A DNA stretch of 63,696 nt from Candidatus Woesearchaeota archaeon (GTDB taxonomy: Archaea > Nanobdellota > Nanobdellia > Woesearchaeales > GW2011-AR4). This document shows, piece by piece, positions 1 to 63,696 of the stretch. The stretch covers positions 1 through 63,696 of the forward strand of contig JAGVXT010000011.1 in assembly GCA_018303655.1 (NCBI GenBank). Reading direction: 5' to 3'. Under the pieces are notes generated by a model. It searched no databases and was not told the DNA's origin. It was given only the letters and a program-made list of their open reading frames with translations. A program made the position numbers and the translations under genes. The stretch's first letter is position 1. Each line of letters begins with the position of its first letter.

Positions 1-15
1 TGTTTTGCCTCCCAT
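1..15 (-). CDS. 5' fragment of a CDS running off the left edge (MGGKT...)
   Basis: Minus-strand AGGAGG SD (24-29) 8 nt before an ATG at 13-15; frame open to the edge. Confidence 0.45.
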
Positions 16-151
16 GGTTTGTGCCTCCTTCTTCACAAACCACCCATTACTTAGTTACGTTATTGAGGAATTATATAAGAATTGTGCAACACAGCAAAAT
101 AATAACAAAGTTTAAATAATAGTATATGTTAAAAATATTATAAAAAGAGGT

Positions 152-4197: not shown

Positions 4198-5844
4198 TTA
4201 TCTAACATATAATGTGCCCGATTGACCCCAGCTCGTACCCGCCGTGTCGCAGCCGTTTAATGAGGGGTGCCCATAGATCAACCGGTCAGCTGGGGTTGCT
4301 GTTCCATCGGCTAGGGCCTTGATACTCCCCTGTGAGATTTGTGCCGTACCATAACCGACTGGAGGATAGGTGTACGCCTCAGCCGTACAGGCGCCACTGG
4401 CGTCCGTTGTCGCGGCGAAAGTACAACTGGTTTGGAAATACCCTATGACCGATGCGCAGGTCAAGCGATAGGCCGGACTTGCTCCGAGCTTGATCTGGTT
4501 GATCGTCGTGTCGGAATACTTCCCCTTCCCGGTCGGGCTCGTTAGGCTTCCGGAAGTTACGGCGGCCGTATTGACGTGATTCGCATTGGCTTCAATGCCA
4601 ACAACCAAAGTCCAGCCTCCATCCTGGTTGATCATATCGCAGTATGCTTGGAACGCATTATTCGTGTTCCCGTCGTTATCGGGGTCAATCCAATATATGC
4701 CGCTGCCGGTTGAAAGACCATCGTCCAAAATCTTCTTACAAGTTCTGCCTGCGTCTGTTTGGCTTGTTCCCCCCTCGCCCCCAGCGATCTTGGTCCATGT
4801 CGTACCGGTGCATCCCTGAAAGGCCGTCCCTGTCCAACGAATCGTGCCCGCTTTCGACGCGTCGCATGCGCTCATATCGTTCGCTACCTTAACCCCGCCG
4901 CTGACATCCAGCTTGGCCGCGGGGCTCGCCGTCCCGATGCCGACGTTGCCTACCTTTCCGGATTCCCGAGAAATGGTCATAGCAAGAGTCCTTGCACCAG
5001 CAACTACAGAATAAATATTTAATTCGCCTCGCAATTTTTGCTCGTGGTCAAAATCAAAACCATAATCAAGCGCAGTCGCTGACTTTATATTCAAAAATGG
5101 TTTTACAGTTGTATCGTTGGAAATAATGTTAACTGTCCCAGCAGTTCCAGAAGGAGCGAAGTTCGGTCCAACATTTATGTTACCTACAACTTGTAATTTA
5201 TTATTTGGAGATGTCGTCCCGATGCCGACGTTGCCTACTGTTGTTATTCTCACTTTTTCCGCCCCGCTTGTCCAAAAAGTAAGCGGAACATAAGAACCTG
5301 CACCAACATAATCAGCTCTAACCTGCGCAACCGATGAACCGTAATTAAGATAAACTCCATTTGTTGCACTTCCAAATATCGACTCACCATTAACATGTAA
5401 TTTGAGCAATGGCCCCGCCGTCCCGATGCCGACATTACCGCTAGCATCAATTATGAGCCTACTTATACCAGCTGTTTTATCGTATATTGAGAATTTTCCA
5501 ACGCCAATGCCGCCTGCAGAGCCTGCTGATACCAATGCATACTCTTTTCCACCACCTTCTGTGTTTTTTAGGCTTAAAAAAACCTCATTATTATTTTGCA
5601 GTTCGGTATTGCTTCCTCCCACTGACACATCACCTGCGTGTACAAGAACAGGCATGATTAAGATTAGGGCTACCGCTAGGCTAATCCTTAAAATTGAGGC
5701 AAAGAAGCTTGAAATGGATTTTTCAGTCAGTTGTGAGCGAGTTCGCAGTGAGTTGCGAGAGCTCTCCTCTCGCTCGCTCATTTCCCAGCTCACTCGCATT
5801 CGACTATTCTTTTCTTTTTTGTTTGTTATATTTGTTTTTTCCAT
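4198..5844 (-). CDS. Secreted adhesin-like protein with GNVGIGT repeats and a C-terminal fibrinogen-like domain
   Basis: Signal/TM segment ending VHA; three GNVGIGT units; RTCKKIL..GSGIYWIDPD..FQAYCDM..DGGWTLV fibrinogen C-domain signature. Confidence 0.8.
   Translation of the reverse strand: MEKTNITNKKEKNSRMRVSWEMSEREESSRNSLRTRSQLTEKSISSFFASILRISLAVALILIMPVLVHAGDVSVGGSNTELQNNNEVFLSLKNTEGGGKEYALVSAGSAGGIGVGKFSIYDKTAGISRLIIDASGNVGIGTAGPLLKLHVNGESIFGSATNGVYLNYGSSVAQVRADYVGAGSYVPLTFWTSGAEKVRITTVGNVGIGTTSPNNKLQVVGNINVGPNFAPSGTAGTVNIISNDTTVKPFLNIKSATALDYGFDFDHEQKLRGELNIYSVVAGARTLAMTISRESGKVGNVGIGTASPAAKLDVSGGVKVANDMSACDASKAGTIRWTGTAFQGCTGTTWTKIAGGEGGTSQTDAGRTCKKILDDGLSTGSGIYWIDPDNDGNTNNAFQAYCDMINQDGGWTLVVGIEANANHVNTAAVTSGSLTSPTGKGKYSDTTINQIKLGASPAYRLTCASVIGYFQTSCTFAATTDASGACTAEAYTYPPVGYGTAQISQGSIKALADGTATPADRLIYGHPSLNGCDTAGTSWGQSGTLYVR
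5725..5805. repeat. Palindromic repeat family A copy inserted in frame in the adhesin N-terminus
   Basis: 81 nt (27 codons), AGTCAGTTGTGAGCGAGTTCGC ... GCTCACTCGCATTCGACT; same ends as 7147-7312. Confidence 0.85.
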
Positions 5845-7146: not shown

Positions 7147-7312
7147 AGTCAGCTGTGAGCGAGTTCGCGTAGCTAAGCGAGCGAAAGAGTTGTTTGCGAG
7201 CACGAGTTGAACGCGAGCTTGCTCGTAAGATAAGCGAGCGAAAGCAAGCTTTCGCATTCCACTCTCGCAAGCATCTGAGCTTTCGCATTCCACCGCTCAC
7301 TCGCATTCGACT
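7147..7312. repeat. Palindromic repeat family A, long compound copy
   Basis: Same termini as 5725-5805 with internal hairpins such as GCGAAAGCAAGCTTTCGC. Confidence 0.85.
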
Positions 7313-7343
7313 GTGTTTTTTACCATTGAGTATTAATTAAATT

Positions 7344-8555: not shown

Positions 8556-8715
8556 ATCGAGGTATCAAAAACCATAGGTTTTTGGGACTTTGGAGAATTT
8601 AGGATATTCTCCAATTTGCGATGTAGTCGCAATTTCCGAAAACATCGAGAATCAAAGATTCTCGGGATTTCCAAAAATCACTTTGTGATTGTTGGTAATG
8701 CTATGCATTTTCGAT
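8556..8715. repeat. Compound multi-hairpin palindromic element (family B)
   Basis: Tandem hairpins CAAAAACCATAGGTTTTTG, TTGGAGAA..TTCTCCAA, TTGCGATGTAGTCGCAA, CGAGAATCAAAGATTCTCG, AATCACTTTGTGATT, bounded by ATCGA/TCGAT. Confidence 0.8.
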
Positions 8716-8835
8716 AGTAACCCGTTTGGGAAAGTTGAACTTTAGTAGGGTGGCACCCATTATTGCTATGCTGCACATGGGTCTCCGGTTTTTTATAAAA
8801 ATAAGAAAGTATAATTGAGTCTGCAATAATTTTTA

Positions 8836-8876
8836 TAGAGAATTTTGACAAAATTTATGTATTTCAAAATTCTCTA
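8836..8876. repeat. Palindrome family C copy
   Basis: Near-identical arms to 3292-3332. Confidence 0.75.
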
Positions 8877-8925
8877 AGAGAACTTTGAATGTAAAGTAAT
8901 AAAATGGCAGGTTATTCAAAGTTCT

Positions 8926-9627
8926 CTATATAACTGTTGATAATACTTCCCCTTTGACTTCTTTTGTATAGTTTGAGCCGCTGACTACTGCGTTGTACCT
9001 CACAGTTATCAATATTTTTCCCTTTTCGCCGGCAACTAATCCCCCTCCTGAACAAACGCTCCATGTAATGTCCTTAACCTCGCCTGATTTCCAGGATACT
9101 GGAGGTACGGGTGGAGTATCGCAGGTATAAGCAGTCGTGCTTTCTGTGCTTAATGTAATTGAAGATGTGTCTATCGGTTCGCCGACATTATTTTTCAGCC
9201 TTAGCTTGAAAGTGCCCGTTGTTGATGAAATCTGGTAGTCAATGCACTGGAATTCGGCGCCAAAATTGCACCTGTTAGGCAGGATTTTGCTTGGGTTTAA
9301 AATGCCAAAATAAGCAAGAGTGCCTATCATAATCAAGATAACTAAAAAAGCCCAGCCGTATGTTGCAAGAAATTCCAAAGCAGCCTGTGACTTACTGTCT
9401 TTAAATATCATTTCTACCTTCTCTTTTTTTATTTTTCCACCAAAGTTTTCCTTTATCTGAAGCAAGATGCCAAGTGTAATCAGCAAAAGCAATGTATTAA
9501 CAAAAAGCAAGGAAATGTTTATAGCGCTTATGCTTACCTCCTTAAACCTTGCTGCTGTAAAAACCCCAATAACCGCCATTATAAAAACCACAGCAGTTAT
9601 CAAGAACTTATGTTGCACGTGGTTCAT
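8926..9627 (-). CDS. Type IV pilin-like protein with an upstream in-frame two-TM segment
   Basis: Internal KSQAALEFLATYGWA class III signal near residue 80. Confidence 0.8.
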   Translation of the reverse strand: MNHVQHKFLITAVVFIMAVIGVFTAARFKEVSISAINISLLFVNTLLLLITLGILLQIKENFGGKIKKEKVEMIFKDSKSQAALEFLATYGWAFLVILIMIGTLAYFGILNPSKILPNRCNFGAEFQCIDYQISSTTGTFKLRLKNNVGEPIDTSSITLSTESTTAYTCDTPPVPPVSWKSGEVKDITWSVCSGGGLVAGEKGKILITVRYNAVVSGSNYTKEVKGEVLSTVI

Positions 9628-20134: not shown

Positions 20135-21000
20135 GCTTTGATGCTTTGAGCATAGGCTTCCTGAAGATTCTCAGAACATAAATTTTTCCCGCTTTGCGGT
20201 CGGCTAAAATCAAATTTATATGAAATTATGCTAGGATTTCTTCACGCCTAAAAATTTATTGTTCTCGAGAATCGAGGATAAATCCTCTGGCGGCGGCGAA
20301 GCTGCCGGAGGAAAAAATGGCAAGGACAAATACGAACTGGTATGTAGTAGACTTATTTAAGGACATGGCGGAAAAAATTGACTGCAAGGAGCATTTCGAC
20401 CCAAGGGAGTTTGACATCACCATTGAGAAGATTTCCAAAGTGAGAAGGACAAGAAATGCCGCTTACAATATAAACTTCCACTTTGTTTGGATACCGAAGA
20501 CAAGGGCAAAAATACTTGTCGAGCCGTTTAAGTCTGACGTAAAGCATTTCCTAATGGAAAAATGCCAAGAGAGAGAATGGGATCCGTTGGCATTGCAAGT
20601 AATGCCAGACCATATTCATTTTTTCCTTTCAGCTCCGCCGAAATGGGCGCCTTCAAAGATAATGCAGGAGCTGAAAACGTACAGCTCAAGGCTGCTGAGG
20701 AGAAAATACTCAATTATAAGGGAAATGAGAACATCTCCTGACTTTTGGGCGTCTGGATATTATGTTGGTACAGCAGGGCACATCACTGCAGAGAGTGTTG
20801 CAAGATATATTGCTGAACAGAATAAGAAGCTTGAAGGAAAATGGCATTTGTTTGACTTGGAGCCGTTTGAATATGATATTTTCGACGGCAGATTGAGAGT
20901 GCCAAAAGACCAGTCTAGGTTAAGCAATTTTGTTTGATGCGCTTTGAGCGCATGGTGGGCATACATCTACCCCACTATCGTGGGAAGGTTTAAGCCCACA
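20135..21000 (+). mobile_element. IS200-like element (solo tnpA) with structured ends; boundaries approximate
   Basis: Related hairpins ATGCT-TTG-AGCAT (20141-20153) and ATGCGCT-TTG-AGCGCAT (20937-20953) flank tnpA; no tnpB. Confidence 0.7.
20317..20937 (+). CDS. tnpA: IS200/IS605 family Y1 HUH transposase
   Basis: HFVWIPK, MPDHIH (HUH), FWASGYY, RYIAEQ. Confidence 0.95.
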   Translation: MARTNTNWYVVDLFKDMAEKIDCKEHFDPREFDITIEKISKVRRTRNAAYNINFHFVWIPKTRAKILVEPFKSDVKHFLMEKCQEREWDPLALQVMPDHIHFFLSAPPKWAPSKIMQELKTYSSRLLRRKYSIIREMRTSPDFWASGYYVGTAGHITAESVARYIAEQNKKLEGKWHLFDLEPFEYDIFDGRLRVPKDQSRLSNFV

Positions 21001-46387: not shown

Positions 46388-46625
46388 CTGACACCACCCT
46401 GTAAAAAATCGATTCGCCTGCAGTAGGGCTTTTTCTTGTTATTTTTATGACATCCCAAAGTTTAGCGTCCAATTCTTTTATAGCTGAGTCTGTCTTTAGT
46501 ATTTTTGGCAGCTCTTTAGAAGTTACCTGATACTTTTCAAGCAGCTGTGCTTTTTCCCTTTCGCCAAGCTTTGAATGTTTTGGAGTCAGTATGTGCTTAT
46601 CAACTTTGAATTTCTGCTTCTTCAT
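46380..46625 (-). CDS. rpoH: RNA polymerase subunit H (Rpo5)
   Basis: HILTPKH, LPKI, RKSPTAGESIFYRVV. Confidence 0.97.
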   Translation of the reverse strand: MKKQKFKVDKHILTPKHSKLGEREKAQLLEKYQVTSKELPKILKTDSAIKELDAKLWDVIKITRKSPTAGESIFYRVVSDV

Positions 46626-46670
46626 CTTGTGGTTAGTCGCTGTTCACCTTGTTTTCTGATTGATTTTGAG

Positions 46671-46819
46671 TGGGCCGGACGAGATTTCCAGGCATTGTCT
46701 GCTTCATTCGGACTCGCGACCACCTGATTAAAAGTTTCACCCCGACATTTATTTCTGTCCGGCAGGTGCTCTTTCCTGCTTGCTTTGCAAGAGCAGGTAC
46801 CAGGCTGAGCTACCGGCCC
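46671..46819 (-). tRNA. tRNA-Lys(UUU) with three BHB introns (20/21, 30/31, 59/60)
   Basis: Removing 46773-46798, 46736-46762 and 46685-46706 gives a 74-nt cloverleaf GGGCCGGTAGCTCAGCCTGGTAGAGCACCTGACTTTTAATCAGGTGGTCGCGAGTCCGAATCTCGTCCGGCCCA. Confidence 0.92.
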
Positions 46820-46826
46820 ATTGAGA

Positions 46827-46863
46827 TGAATGCGAGGGCTCTTCCCGAGCATTCTCGCGTTCA
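46827..46863. repeat. Palindromic repeat family A copy between the two tRNAs
   Basis: TGAATGCGAG ... CTCGCGTTCA hairpin built from family A motifs. Confidence 0.7.
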
Positions 46864-46872
46864 ATATAAAAG

Positions 46873-47006
46873 CGCCCTGGTCGGGACTTTCAAAAGCGAT
46901 GTGGTCGCATTATTTTTGAACCCGAATCGAAGCCGGTTTGTATGCGAGCTCGATAATATCCCGCATTCGACAGGGCTTCATGATAGCCGGATTACACCAC
47001 CAGGGC
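46873..47006 (-). tRNA. tRNA-Asp(GUC) with two BHB introns (37/38, 59/60)
   Basis: Removing 46936-46967 and 46887-46914 gives a 74-nt cloverleaf with GCCCTGG/CCAGGGC acceptor stem, AAGCC-CTGTCGC-GGCTT anticodon arm and TTCAAAT T-loop. Confidence 0.92.
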
Positions 47007-47393
47007 GTCACGCGGCTATAAACGGCATAGCAATCCCTCATTAGCAAAATTGTAAATGAAATTATAGTCTTTTGGCTAAAGAAGGATTATTTCTCATCAT
47101 AAACGGGATAAACTGGTTATTTATAAAGGTTGCGGAATTTGATATATAAAAACAACTCCAATAAACTAATCTAAACCTTTAAATATCAAAATCAAATTCT
47201 TTTTCCCATGAAAAGAAGCTCTCGTCGATGGAAAAAAAAGAGGCAAATGCGATGGAAATGGCAGCGCAAGCGAATGAAAAAAGAGAGAAGACTGAGGAAG
47301 CAGCACAGGTCTGGGTAAAAATTAATATTTTTCTTGATTTTATAATAGGAACAAACACAAAATTTATATTAATATAAGATTTCTCCATGCATA

Positions 47394-53286: not shown

Positions 53287-53907
53287 TTGTGGGGGAGAAT
53301 GTTAAGGATTGGTGTTTTAGCATCGACAAAAGCAACAGACATGCAGGCTGTAATTGATGCTATAAACGACAATAAGCTAAATGCCTCTATTTCTGTTGTT
53401 GTGAGCAACAAAAAGGATGCTTTTGCTTTGGAAAGGGCAAAAAACCATAAAATAAAATCGGTTTTCATCGATTCAAAAGGCAAGAACAGGGAGCAGTATG
53501 ATAAGGAAATTGCAAAAGTTCTTGAGCAAAACAAAGTTGAATTAATTTTATTAATTGGTTACATGAGATTCTTAAGCCCGTGGTTTGTCAGCAAGTACAA
53601 AAACAGGATAATGAACATACACCCAAGCTTACTGCCGAAGTATGCAGGAGGCATGGACGAGGATGTTCATGCAGAAGTTTTAAAAAACAGGGAAAAAGTG
53701 ACAGGAGCAACTTTGCATTTTGTTGATGAAGGCGCTGATACGGGCCCTGTAATAATGCAAAAAAGAGTAAATATTGAAGAAAATGAAGCTGTAGATTCGC
53801 TTAAAGAAAAAGTCCAGAAGGCAGAGCAGGAAATAATTGTAAAGGCAGTTGATTTATACAGCAAGGGAAAGATAAAAGTCAAGGGCAACAAGGTGGTAAT
53901 TGGATAG
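53287..53907 (+). CDS. purN: Phosphoribosylglycinamide formyltransferase
   Basis: NIHPSLLP, TGATLHFVDEGADTGPVI. Confidence 0.95.
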   Translation: MWGRMLRIGVLASTKATDMQAVIDAINDNKLNASISVVVSNKKDAFALERAKNHKIKSVFIDSKGKNREQYDKEIAKVLEQNKVELILLIGYMRFLSPWFVSKYKNRIMNIHPSLLPKYAGGMDEDVHAEVLKNREKVTGATLHFVDEGADTGPVIMQKRVNIEENEAVDSLKEKVQKAEQEIIVKAVDLYSKGKIKVKGNKVVIG

Positions 53908-53910
53908 ATA

Positions 53911-54076
53911 GGCGAGGCGTCACGATATTATCGAAAACCAAAGGTTTTCGGGAATGCTCGAAATCTTCGATTTCGACATGGCAAGAAAGTGACGCCGAGC
54001 ACAGTGAGCTGAGCGAGCGAGAGAGTTGAACGCGAGCTCGCGTTCTCGCGAGCAGGTTGAGCTCTCGCATTCGACT
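53911..54076. repeat. Compound palindromic element joining family B hairpins and the family A end
   Basis: GGCGTCAC/GTGACGCC enclosing CGAAAACCAAAGGTTTTCG and CGAAATCTTCGATTTCG, then GCGAGCTCGCG and CTCGCATTCGACT. Confidence 0.85.
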
Positions 54077-54458
54077 ATTTGCAGAGCAGATTACAGAGCA
54101 AAAAATTATCTGGTGGAAGGACAGGAAGCTTTTGGCAGGGGTGATTTTGGTAGTATCAAGCTTTATCCTTGGGTTTTATGGAAAGGTTTTGTTTATTACA
54201 AAATTCTACGAACCTATTTACCTCATTACTAGTTTGTCTATATGGGCTTTCAGCTTTATTTTGCTTTTTGCCGGTGTTTTTTTGGTTGGCTGGGAAACAG
54301 TAAGGATGATTCAATATAGTATACACAATCATGTTAGAAGAACTGTAAAGGATACCTACCAGTATACAAAAGGCCTGCCGAAAAAAGGCTATAGCTATAC
54401 AAAGGAATTGCACAAAAAGAGCATGGCTAAGATAAAAAAATCAATGGCAAAAAAATGA
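54057..54458 (+). CDS. Two-TM hypothetical protein (start uncertain, overlaps the repeat)
   Basis: Hydrophobic pair; 4-nt overlap with purH. Confidence 0.65.
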   Translation: MSSRIRLFAEQITEQKIIWWKDRKLLAGVILVVSSFILGFYGKVLFITKFYEPIYLITSLSIWAFSFILLFAGVFLVGWETVRMIQYSIHNHVRRTVKDTYQYTKGLPKKGYSYTKELHKKSMAKIKKSMAKK

Positions 54459-63553: not shown

Positions 63554-63627
63554 AATTGATGGAAAGCCATATTTTTATTTAAATGTTTCCAAGCTTCAGG
63601 CTTTGTCCCAAATCTTAAATATAACCG

Positions 63628-63674
63628 CTGTTAGTCGTTAGACTAACAGGGGGTGGACAGTGAAGGTGTCCACC
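63628..63674 (+). promoter_or_regulatory. Double-hairpin leader ahead of a CDS start at 63675
   Basis: CTGTTAGTC/GACTAACAG and GGTGGACA/TGTCCACC stems, ATG directly after, TATA-like TTAAATATA upstream. Confidence 0.55.
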
Positions 63675-63696
63675 ATGAAAAACAAAACAGCATTAA

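What the first reader, a model, noticed from the sequence alone, without database searches (positions are those of the whole stretch)
46887..46967. Both tRNA-Asp introns contain modules of the dispersed palindromic repeats
The T-loop intron hairpin GCGATGTGGTCGCA (46896-46909) matches GCGATGTAGTCGCA (8618-8631) at 13/14. The anticodon intron and its junction carry GCGAGCTCG and CGCATTCGAC in the same order as 54032-54075. Its GATATTATCGA (minus strand) recurs at 53924-53934. Another family copy sits between the two tRNAs. Inference: the repeat system seeds or colonises BHB introns, or excised introns seed the repeats, which would give a concrete route for archaeal tRNA intron gain. Individual matches are short and palindromic, so statistics are needed.
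Basis: partly seen in the sequence, partly recalled or inferred. Interest (0 to 1): 0.85.

Follow-up and report, generated by a model that had tools for sequence, protein, structure and literature searches.

The report
Palindromic repeats colonise archaeal tRNA introns
A two-intron aspartate tRNA gene in a tiny groundwater archaeon sits in a genome whose mobile hairpin repeats have moved into many tRNA introns, but only one of this gene's two introns shows a trace of them beyond chance.

Summary
The tRNA-Asp(GTC) gene is real: minus strand 46874-47006, with a 32-nt intron at 37/38 and a 28-nt T-loop intron at 59/60. Next to it lies a three-intron tRNA-Lys(TTT).

The repeats are a real family, called F1 here. 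They are GC-rich nested hairpins, GTCGAATGCGAGTGAGC...CTCGCTCACAACTCACTG, at 48 stringent loci, found across the genus (Woesearchaeota relatives).

4 of 42 tRNA spans carry F1 copies at BLAST E<=1e-8, one of 75 nt at 100%. Filled and empty sites show F1 dropped into the loops of existing introns, including the tRNA-Asp T-loop intron of a sister species. One copy sits in the variable-arm loop of tRNA-Ser(CGA).

For this gene the result is mixed:
- Anticodon intron: resembles the F1 outer hairpin beyond chance (0/700 hairpin-preserving controls; 7/700 under the strictest control).
- Asp-Lys spacer: holds a mini copy (0/60).
- T-loop hairpin match: chance level (119/700).
- GATATTATCGA: ordinary.

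F1 behaves as MITE/REP-like selfish DNA that survives in intron loops. Intron gain by F1 insertion is not shown. No RNA data exist.

The parts
46874..47006 (-). tRNA-Asp(GTC) gene with two introns (133 nt precursor, 73 nt mature)
   Evidence: Spliced product called tRNA-Asp(gtc) by ARAGORN. 17 congeneric orthologues share the exons. Exact contigs in three independent DNA runs cover it.
46936..46967 (-). Anticodon-loop intron at 37/38, 32 nt: inner helix ATGCGGG/CTCGCAT, central BHB helix CTGT/ACAA with 3 of 4 pairs. It resembles the outer hairpin of F1.
   Evidence: Boundaries fixed by intron-less orthologues. Fold. Alignment test 0/700, 1/700, 7/700. Best alignments.
46887..46914 (-). T-loop intron at 59/60, 28 nt: central helix TTCA/TGAA 4 of 4, inner hairpin GCGA-CCACA-TCGC
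   Evidence: A T-loop intron is present in all 18 tRNA-Asp genes read. Its similarity to the repeat library is at chance level.
46820..46873 (-). Asp-Lys spacer holding a miniature F1-type hairpin (TTGAACGCGAG...CTCGCATTCA)
   Evidence: TGAACGCGAG occurs 21 times and CTCGCATTCA 8 times in the genome. z 5.1, 0/60 shuffles. By my reading it is present in 6 of 18 congeneric loci, and 8 have 8-15-nt spacers. Contigs of relatives in 4 runs replace it with 11 other letters.
46672..46819 (-). tRNA-Lys(TTT) gene with three introns (D-loop 46773-46798, position 30/31 46736-46762, 59/60 46686-46706)
   Evidence: Spliced product called tRNA-Lys(ttt) by ARAGORN. Its introns are not significantly repeat-like: 4/60, 43/60, 6/80.
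5721..5824 (-). F1 repeat copy, 5' end GTCGAATGCG at 5804
   Evidence: 71 nt at 97% identity to the D-loop intron of the tRNA at C1:560-826.
7169..7313 (-). Composite F1 repeat copy, 5' end at 7311
   Evidence: Best-scoring library partner of the tRNA-Asp anticodon intron.
53904..54088 (-). Composite repeat: F1 copy (5' end at 54075) joined to AT-rich hairpin modules between GGCGAGGC and GCCGAGCAC
   Evidence: Near-identical copies at C22:2159-2347 and C18:29014-29111.
8562..8728 (+). Hairpin-module composite holding TGCGATGTAGTCGCA. It is one copy of a family bounded by AAGCGGTTTACT and AAAAGTCGCTCTCGT.
   Evidence: Paralogues at C36:73903 and C37:4779.

Best explanation
The region holds an ordinary but heavily interrupted archaeal tRNA-Asp gene. 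[quoted passage not shown]

The genome belongs to a genus related to Woesearchaeota MAGs. That genus carries a family of non-autonomous, GC-rich, nested-hairpin repeats (F1). F1 behaves like MITE/REP-type selfish DNA: it inserts at the DNA level into non-coding sequence. Inside tRNA genes it persists where extra sequence does not disturb the BHB or the cloverleaf, which is mainly the apical loops of existing introns.

This inflates and diversifies introns and leaves eroded fragments behind. In this tRNA-Asp, the anticodon intron carries such an F1-derived outer stem, and the Asp-Lys spacer carries a mini copy. The T-loop intron is a vertically inherited intron whose hairpin resembles a repeat module only by chance.

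Shown: the gene structure, the repeat family, the nested insertions, and the statistics. Inferred: splicing itself, the mobility mechanism, and that the anticodon-intron similarity reflects descent from an F1 insertion or conversion.
For: Gene and introns.

Endonuclease: one ORF with tRNA_int_endo_N and tRNA_int_endo domains.

F1 family:
- GTCGAATGCG occurs 24 times, and the most repeated GC-rich 12-mers belong to F1.
- 48 stringent loci: 30 intergenic, 14 in crude ORFs, 2 in tRNA genes, 2 at gene edges.
- Copies fold as long imperfect hairpins with CAGT/ACTG ends.
- The 12-mer tag occurs 3-20 times in 5 congeners against 0-1 for the reversed control.
- F1 parts of a query hit 28 of 30 congeners.
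- It is not expanded in 120 other genera of the order, at most 3 per genome and like the control.

F1 inside introns:
- 4 of 42 tRNA spans hit non-tRNA F1 copies at E 4e-37 to 1e-11.
- 118 shared 14-mers, against a maximum of 45 in 300 random-window draws.
- 7 of 21 T-loop introns and 7 of 44 solver-predicted other introns exceed every shuffle.

Filled and empty sites:
- G013 against G014 tRNA-Asp T-loop intron: a 41-44-nt insert between identical flanks.
- C1 against C35 D-loop intron.
- tRNA-Ser(CGA) variable loop against 3 orthologues.

Density: F1 makes up 1.9% of tRNA spans, 1.3% of intergenic DNA and 0.08% of coding DNA. Introns are colonised about like other non-coding DNA.

tRNA-Asp itself:
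- Anticodon intron 0/700, 1/700, 7/700; spacer 0/60.
- 5 of 13 orthologous anticodon introns score at <=3/150 against this genome's repeat library.
- The G021 orthologue consists of three blocks collinear with one F1 copy.
Against: - BLAST finds no hit of this tRNA-Asp to any repeat at E<=0.01.
- Simple k-mer sharing of the bare introns is borderline, P 0.05-0.1 for the anticodon intron.
- Four of the ten matching bases of GTCGAATGCG are exon (anticodon plus G37) and are fixed by tRNA function. The next four (AATG) are shared by 7 orthologues, so only a few bases are specific to this genome.
- 8 of 13 orthologous anticodon introns show no excess similarity.
- The number of tRNA spans sharing a 14-mer with the library (6 of 42) lies inside the random-window range, mean 2.2 and maximum 7.
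- My scoring scheme and library were chosen after seeing the data.
- No target-site duplication and no matching transposase ends were found for F1.
- Splicing is untested: no RNA run holds the locus.
- Intron boundaries outside tRNA-Asp and tRNA-Lys come from my own heuristic solver, and some are doubtful.
Confidence: 0.65

Rival explanations
1. Intron birth by repeat insertion. The 37/38 intron of tRNA-Asp is itself a miniature F1 element that landed next to the anticodon. It was tolerated because its terminal hairpin completes a BHB with the anticodon stem, so F1 is a direct source of new tRNA introns.
For: - The F1 5' end CAGTCGAATGCGAG matches C32-G37 plus the intron start CTGTCGAATGCGGG at 12 of 14 positions, in register with the splice site. 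One F1 copy (C11:5030) even has the CT.
- G004 and G022 tRNA-Asp junctions carry the full 12-mer tag GTCGAATGTGAG.
- The G021 intron is GTCGAATG + AGACTTGT + CTCGCTCACA, collinear with F1 copy C24:5253.
- The intron is absent in 5 of 18 congeneric genes.
- F1 sits in an exon loop of tRNA-Ser(CGA) where 3 orthologues have none, and a relaxed BHB candidate (4/4 central helix, 5-bp inner helix, no outer helix) overlaps it.
Against: - 37/38 is the commonest archaeal intron position, and both tRNA-Asp clades of the genus have an intron there, so loss in 5 lineages is at least as parsimonious.
- Filled/empty pairs show that GT(C/G)G belongs to the element and is not a retained target. An insertion should then have duplicated GTCG, which is not seen.
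- Folded F1 copies show a helix, an internal loop and a helix, with no self-contained BHB.
- The BHB candidate in tRNA-Ser would leave a 23-nt arm, not the 15-nt arm of the orthologues.
Confidence: 0.15
2. All tRNA-Asp matches are coincidence. Introns and repeats are both short GC-rich hairpins in an AT-rich genome, so they share stems such as ATGCG/CGCAT without any common descent.
For: The T-loop match is at chance level. There is no BLAST hit. k-mer tests are borderline. Exon bases and ancestral AATG inflate the 10-mer match. The strictest control still reaches the score in 7/700 draws, and the test was designed after the fact.
Against: Hairpin-preserving, composition-matched random introns never reached the observed score (0/700). 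The spacer next to the gene independently carries two high-copy F1 10-mers in F1 order. Different orthologues match different F1 parts. Nested F1 copies in other introns give a strong prior.
Confidence: 0.15
3. Introns seed the repeats. F1, or its outer module, descends from a DNA copy of the intron-bearing anticodon arm of pre-tRNA-Asp, like tRNA-derived SINEs. Excised or unspliced intron RNA or DNA was the founder.
For: The F1 5' terminus includes a near copy of the functionally fixed anticodon loop (C-x-GTC-G), which a tRNA cannot have taken from a repeat. The F1 copy C1:10193 aligns with almost the whole intron: 5' 11 of 12, 3' TCGAGCT..CGCAT..ACAAC (my reading). A second family, GGCGAGGC...GCCGAGC, resembles the conserved D-loop intron of tRNA-Ser.
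Against: Position -1 of F1 is A in 21 of 23 copies where tRNAs need U33. An excised intron would lack GTCG, and no permuted junction of a circular intron is seen in F1. No reverse transcriptase was looked for. Six shared bases are weak evidence.
Confidence: 0.05

Closest known systems
tRNA intron transposition in Thermoproteales (Fujishima et al. 2010), as described in the Yoshihisa 2014 review (passages read) and in a 2026 preprint on Asgard tRNA introns (section 2.5 read)
   Same: Near-identical introns sit in tRNA genes of different identity. Here one 59/60 intron family (TTGYNGCAAGCGAGC...GCATGCAAG) is found in 7 of 21 T-loop introns, in tRNAs with different acceptor stems. The process acts at the DNA level and its mechanism is unknown.
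   Different: Here a separate repeat family that is abundant OUTSIDE tRNA genes is nested inside introns. The intron family itself was not found outside tRNAs: 2 hits at <=5 substitutions, both in tRNAs. The lineage is DPANN, not TACK.
MITEs, REP/REPIN sequences and IS200/IS605-derived palindromic elements (recalled from general knowledge; a MITE review appeared only in a search listing)
   Same: Short, non-coding, hairpin-forming, multi-copy and lineage-specific. There are filled and empty sites, short inverted ends (CAGT...ACTG) and a conserved GT(C/G)G head.
   Different: No target-site duplication was seen. The three IS200/IS605 TnpA genes of the genome have other flanks. The architecture is modular and nested (hairpins within hairpins). 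The host is an archaeon of about 1.3 Mb.
Rickettsia palindromic elements (recalled, no paper read)
   Same: Palindromic selfish repeats that also sit inside genes. One F1 copy lies in an ORF whose frame stays open through it, and 14 of 48 loci lie in crude ORF calls.
   Different: Whether F1 copies in ORFs are translated, spliced or artefacts of my ORF calls was not tested.
Disrupted tRNA genes of DPANN archaea with alpha4-type EndA carrying the L3 loop (Kaneta et al. 2018; passages read)
   Same: A single alpha-type EndA gene and many non-canonical introns. Standard finders miss most tRNAs: 16 over cut-off.
   Different: I did not test for the L3 loop. The passages of that paper that I read do not mention repeats inside introns.
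tRNA-Thr gene disruption by a mobile element in Caldiarchaeum (Sugahara et al. 2012; abstract read)
   Same: A mobile element is linked with intron gain and with a scattered tRNA fragment. Here a 20-nt copy of a tRNA 5' end lies about 1 kb upstream of its gene on C11.
   Different: There the element is a 1.8-kb recombinase-encoding unit. Here the elements are 40-150-nt non-coding hairpins.

Membership tests
Archaeal BHB tRNA intron (both tRNA-Asp intervening sequences) | Removal restores a canonical cloverleaf tRNA | tested here: met
   The 73-nt product is called tRNA-Asp(gtc) by ARAGORN. It is identical at the 37/38 join to 5 intron-less orthologues.
Archaeal BHB tRNA intron (both tRNA-Asp intervening sequences) | Two 3-nt bulges separated by a 4-bp helix, with cuts at symmetric positions (definition recalled) | tested here: met
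   Read from the sequence. T-loop: TTCA/TGAA 4 of 4, with bulges AA|A and AG|T. Anticodon: CTGT/ACAA 3 of 4, bulges CG|A and AC|C, and a 7-bp inner helix. The inner helix of the T-loop intron is interrupted, so this is a relaxed form.
Archaeal BHB tRNA intron (both tRNA-Asp intervening sequences) | A splicing endonuclease is encoded | tested here: met
   One ORF with PF02778 and PF01974 at C36:39900-40160. The genome is 88% complete, so a second subunit cannot be excluded.
Archaeal BHB tRNA intron (both tRNA-Asp intervening sequences) | Spliced tRNA or circular intron RNA observed | not testable with these tools
   No RNA run holds the locus.
F1 dispersed palindromic repeat (is the anticodon intron a member?) | Significant sequence similarity to F1 copies | tested here: inconclusive
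   The gap-tolerant alignment gives 0/700, 1/700 and 7/700. BLAST gives no hit at E<=0.01, and k-mer P is 0.05-0.1.
F1 dispersed palindromic repeat (is the T-loop intron a member?) | Significant sequence similarity to repeat modules | tested here: not met
   119/700, 47/700 and 620/700 controls reach the score; z 1.4. Orthologues show the GCG...CGC stem is inherited.
MITE/REP-like mobile element (F1 family as a whole) | Many dispersed copies with hairpin or inverted ends | tested here: met
   48 stringent loci; folds; genus-wide.
MITE/REP-like mobile element (F1 family as a whole) | Presence/absence at otherwise identical sites | tested here: met
   Alignments A1, A2 and A3.
MITE/REP-like mobile element (F1 family as a whole) | Target-site duplication and a cognate transposase with matching ends | tested here: not met
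   No duplication is visible at three filled sites. Three IS200/IS605 TnpA genes exist but their flanks are unlike F1.
Thermoproteales-type intron transposition | Introns of >=80% identity in tRNAs of different type | tested here: met
   5 short T-loop introns at 81-88% identity to another member, plus 2 long ones with the same ends, in tRNAs with different acceptor stems. The tRNA-Asp introns are not members (best identity 0.62).

The most novel reading that the evidence does not exclude
The F1 hairpin repeats are a working source of new archaeal tRNA introns. An F1 insertion into a tRNA loop can be cut out by the broad-specificity endonuclease, because the element's own stem supplies the inner helix of a relaxed BHB. 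On this reading the tRNA-Asp 37/38 intron is an old, eroded example, and the F1 copy in the variable loop of tRNA-Ser(CGA) is a nascent one. This would be the first concrete DNA-level route for BHB intron gain.
Probability: 0.15. Interest if true: 0.9.

Novelty: new variant of a known kind. Interest (0 to 1): 0.6.

Why it matters
How archaeal tRNA introns arrive and spread is an open question. The 2014 review calls the mechanism of intron transposition unknown. A 2026 census of Asgard tRNA introns found no general route of arrival.

This genus offers a system where the question can be examined:
- a lineage-specific, clearly mobile hairpin repeat;
- filled and empty sites inside introns and inside one tRNA exon loop;
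- an intron family shared among tRNAs;
- at least 30 sequenced congeners.

At the least, it shows that intron loops are safe havens that let selfish DNA inflate tRNA genes to more than 260 nt. It also helps explain why standard tools find only 16 tRNAs in this genome.

My four full-text searches listed no paper describing dispersed repeats nested in BHB introns. They cover only the held open-access library.

Tried and rejected
- ARAGORN and Rfam on the raw window found no tRNA. Rfam at E<=10 on 46500-47200 gave only chance hits.
- Plain k-mer sharing proved a blunt tool. The repeat library shares many AT-rich words with ordinary sequence, so random windows score high. I replaced it with a gap-tolerant alignment score and structure-preserving controls.
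- I tested the idea that GTCG is a retained IS200/IS605-type target. I rejected it because filled/empty pairs put GT(C/G)G inside the element.
- I considered a link between F1 and the three Y1 transposase genes. Their flanks are unlike F1, and the window's copy scores as IS200 (126 bits), not as a REP-associated transposase (36.7 bits, cut-off 80).
- No TnpB over cut-off was found.
- The F1 12-mer hits outside the genus were read (20 loci). All lie in unrelated, mostly coding-looking sequence, and none is a tRNA-Asp or F1. The tally (19 of 121 genomes) includes one unpublished genome, G136 (1 hit).
- No RNA holder is listed for the locus.
- Laying four DNA runs at 85% likeness gave exact contigs over the locus. 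It also gave many joints with short sides that come from related organisms. I use only the spacer replacement as a hint.
- My tRNA solver gave no cloverleaf for 7 of 37 anchored candidates, and some of its other solutions are doubtful. tRNA-Lys was solved by hand.
- Supplements of papers were not opened. Those of the Asgard preprint and of Kaneta et al. 2018 may hold intron catalogues that bear on novelty.
- Structure prediction, complex prediction and the protein-homology searches were not needed.

Full report
**What lies at the coordinates.**
On the minus strand, 46874-47006 encodes tRNA-Asp(GTC), interrupted twice.
- The first intron is 32 nt, at the canonical position 37/38 (46936-46967).
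- The second is 28 nt, in the T-loop at 59/60 (46887-46914).

ARAGORN without introns and Rfam at gathering score see nothing in the window. After the two segments are removed, ARAGORN calls the 73-nt product tRNA-Asp(gtc). Five congeneric genes carry exactly this exon join at 37/38.

Both introns fit the bulge-helix-bulge layout as I recall it.
- T-loop: TTCA/TGAA central helix, 4 of 4 pairs.
- Anticodon: CTGT/ACAA, 3 of 4 pairs, with a 7-bp inner helix ATGCGGG/CTCGCAT.

Fifty-four bases downstream lies tRNA-Lys(TTT), 46672-46819, with three introns. Exact contigs from three independent DNA runs cover the locus.

**The organism.**
The genome is 1.26 Mb in 37 contigs at about 38% G+C, and is 88% complete. 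The closest named records for its endonuclease gene are Woesearchaeota / Nanoarchaeota MAGs.

Standard tools find only 16 tRNAs. A finder anchored on the acceptor stem and T-arm gave 37 candidates, and 21 of them have a 59/60 intron of 15-103 nt. My BHB-plus-cloverleaf solver gave a structure for 30 of the 37, and some of those solutions are doubtful.

One alpha-type EndA gene is present. This matches the published note that DPANN lineages with alpha4-type enzymes have strongly disrupted tRNA genes (Kaneta et al. 2018, passages read).

All of them exist. The informative one is CGCATTCGAC, which on the tRNA strand reads GTCGAATGCG: the anticodon, G37 and the first six intron bases. It occurs 24 times in the genome, and the other 23 occurrences all start a repeat.

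**The repeat family (F1).**
The unit is (C/T)A-GTCGAATGCGAGTGAGC ... variable nested palindromes ... GAACTCGCTCACAACTCACTG, from about 40 to 150 nt.
- It folds into a long imperfect hairpin closed by CAGT/ACTG.
- A stringent 12-mer signature marks 48 loci: 30 intergenic, 14 inside crude ORF calls, 2 in tRNA genes, 2 at gene edges.
- The family is genus-wide. The tag GTCGAATGNGAG occurs 3-20 times in five congeners, against 0-1 for the reversed control. F1 parts of a query hit 28 of 30 congeners.
- It is not expanded in 120 other genera of the order, at most 3 per genome and like the control. The 20 such hits I read are unrelated sequence.
- Rfam has no match.
- Other repeat families coexist with it.

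**F1 inside tRNA introns.**
This is the strong result.
- BLAST of 42 tRNA spans against the genome with tRNAs masked gives F1 hits for 4 spans, at E 4e-37 to 1e-11. The best is 75 nt at 100% identity, between a D-loop intron (C1:560-826) and three dispersed copies, one of them at window 5729-5799.
- The tRNA spans share 118 14-mers with the repeat library. Shuffles give a mean of 0.3. Random genomic windows give a mean of 5 and a maximum of 45. The number of spans involved (6 of 42) lies within the random-window range (maximum 7).
- With the alignment score, 7 of 21 T-loop introns and 7 of 44 solver-predicted other introns exceed every shuffle.

**Filled and empty sites show the direction.**
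- The tRNA-Asp genes of G013 and G014 have identical exons and T-loop introns, except for a 41-44-nt F1 copy in the intron's loop in G013.
- The D-loop introns of two paralogous tRNAs differ by an F1 copy.
- F1 occupies 1.9% of tRNA spans, 1.3% of intergenic DNA and 0.08% of coding DNA. Introns are therefore colonised about as much as other non-coding DNA.

**This gene's own introns.**
I scored each intron, with its exon flanks held fixed, against a library of 180 repeat segments (17.6 kb, tRNAs excluded). The local alignment allows long gaps.
- Anticodon intron: score 34. Random introns with the same helix and loop architecture and composition never reached it (0 of 700). Mononucleotide shuffles reached it once (1 of 700). 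Controls that also keep the ancestral AATG...CAT reached it 7 times (7 of 700).
- The alignments show the 5' arm GTCGAATGCG.G and the 3' arm TCGAGCT..CGCAT..ACAA of the intron matching the outer hairpin of composite F1 copies, with the interior replaced.
- T-loop intron: score 29, reached by 119, 47 and 620 of 700 controls. Its 14-mer has two other near-matches in the genome, one of them outside any repeat.
- GATATTATCGA is ordinary.
- Spacer between the two tRNAs: it carries TGAACGCGAG (21 copies) and CTCGCATTCA (8 copies) in F1 order and beats all 60 shuffles.

**History from orthologues (18 tRNA-Asp genes).**
- A T-loop intron is present in all 18. Many of them end in a CGCTTGAAAG-like tail, so the GCG...CGC stem of our intron is inherited.
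- The 37/38 intron is present in 13 and absent in 5. Seven start with AATG.
- Against this genome's library, 3 of the 13 anticodon introns beat all 150 shuffles, 2 more are at 3/150, and 8 are unremarkable.
- The G021 intron consists of three blocks collinear with one F1 copy. The G004 and G022 junctions carry the full 12-mer tag.
- The spacer hairpin is present in 6 loci, and 8 have 8-15-nt spacers (my reading).

The intron lineage therefore repeatedly shows F1 sequence, as expected if F1 inserts into it and then decays, or if the intron and F1 recombine.

**Intron birth?**
One case goes further. tRNA-Ser(CGA) at C35:14442-14685 has a 40-41-nt F1 copy in the tetraloop of its variable arm, where three orthologues read CCCGCAAGGG. 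Only a relaxed BHB candidate overlaps it, and cutting there would leave a 23-nt arm. It may be retained, spliced, or the start of decay. This is the best lead for intron gain by F1, but it is unproven.

A separate 59/60 intron family occurs in 7 tRNAs with different acceptor stems and was not found outside tRNAs. This is the Thermoproteales-type pattern of intron spread.

**Mechanism of F1 mobility.**
It is unknown. Three IS200/IS605-type Y1 transposase genes exist, one of them in the window at 20317-20937. Their flanks are unlike F1, and no target duplication is visible.

**Limits.**
- There is no RNA evidence.
- The intron catalogue is heuristic.
- The tests were designed after seeing the data.
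- Related genomes are not independent.
- The four literature searches cover an open-access library only.

Noticed in passing
L103:4596-4636 (G000:C35:14545-14585): A 40-41-nt F1 repeat sits in the variable-arm loop of tRNA-Ser(CGA). Three congeneric orthologues have the plain 15-nt arm. The same gene also has a D-loop intron, a 37/38 intron, and a T-loop intron with another F1 nested in it.
   Followed up: partly
window 20317-20937 (+): IS200/IS605-family Y1 transposase gene (NCBIfam 126 bits), flanked by its own small hairpins. Two more copies lie on C4 and C17, and no TnpB passes the cut-off. None is flanked by F1.
   Followed up: partly
window 8830-8933: A 104-nt two-hairpin, MITE-like repeat (TATAGAGAATTTTGA...TTCAAAGTTCTCTATA) with up to 16 self-BLAST hits. 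Copies lie on at least 9 contigs.
   Followed up: no
window 8562-8728, and C8:51339, C24:9706, C37:4779: A family bounded by AAGCGGTTTACT and AAAAGTCGCTCTCGT. Its interior is either about 20 nt or is filled with a variable set of AT-rich hairpin modules. Its function is unknown.
   Followed up: no
window 1-118 and 63588-63696: Both window ends are repeats shared with several other contig ends (TTTGCCTCCCATGGTTTGTGCC... and ...GGGGGTGGACAGTGAAGGTGTCCACC...). These are probably insertion-sequence ends that broke the assembly.
   Followed up: no
G000:C2:5769-5812; window 5721-5824: An F1 copy lies inside an ORF whose reading frame stays open through it (adding about 14 residues). 14 of 48 F1 loci fall in crude ORF calls. 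The window copy overlaps the first codons of ORF 4198-5844.
   Followed up: partly
G000:C11:5454-5473: A 20-nt exact copy of the 5' end of the tRNA at C11:6415-6564 lies about 1 kb upstream. It looks like a stray tRNA fragment of the kind left by integrating elements.
   Followed up: no
window 47208-47318 (+): A 36-codon ORF rich in Arg and Lys (MKRSSRRWKKKRQMRW...) that looks like ribosomal protein L41e (recalled, not tested). Metagenome contig depth is very high here, consistent with a conserved gene.
   Followed up: no
L133:1322-1593 (G018): The T-loop intron of the G018 tRNA-Ser orthologue is about 160 nt and contains stretches that look like tRNA arms.
   Followed up: no
L103 (C35:12797-13016) against L006/L014: The T-loop intron of one tRNA of this genome (solver-assigned anticodon CTC) is clearly homologous to the T-loop intron of tRNA-Asp in G013 and G014 (GCATGCAATG.GGGAT...CCC.CGGAACGATGG). 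The same intron thus occurs in tRNAs with different acceptor stems across species.
   Followed up: no
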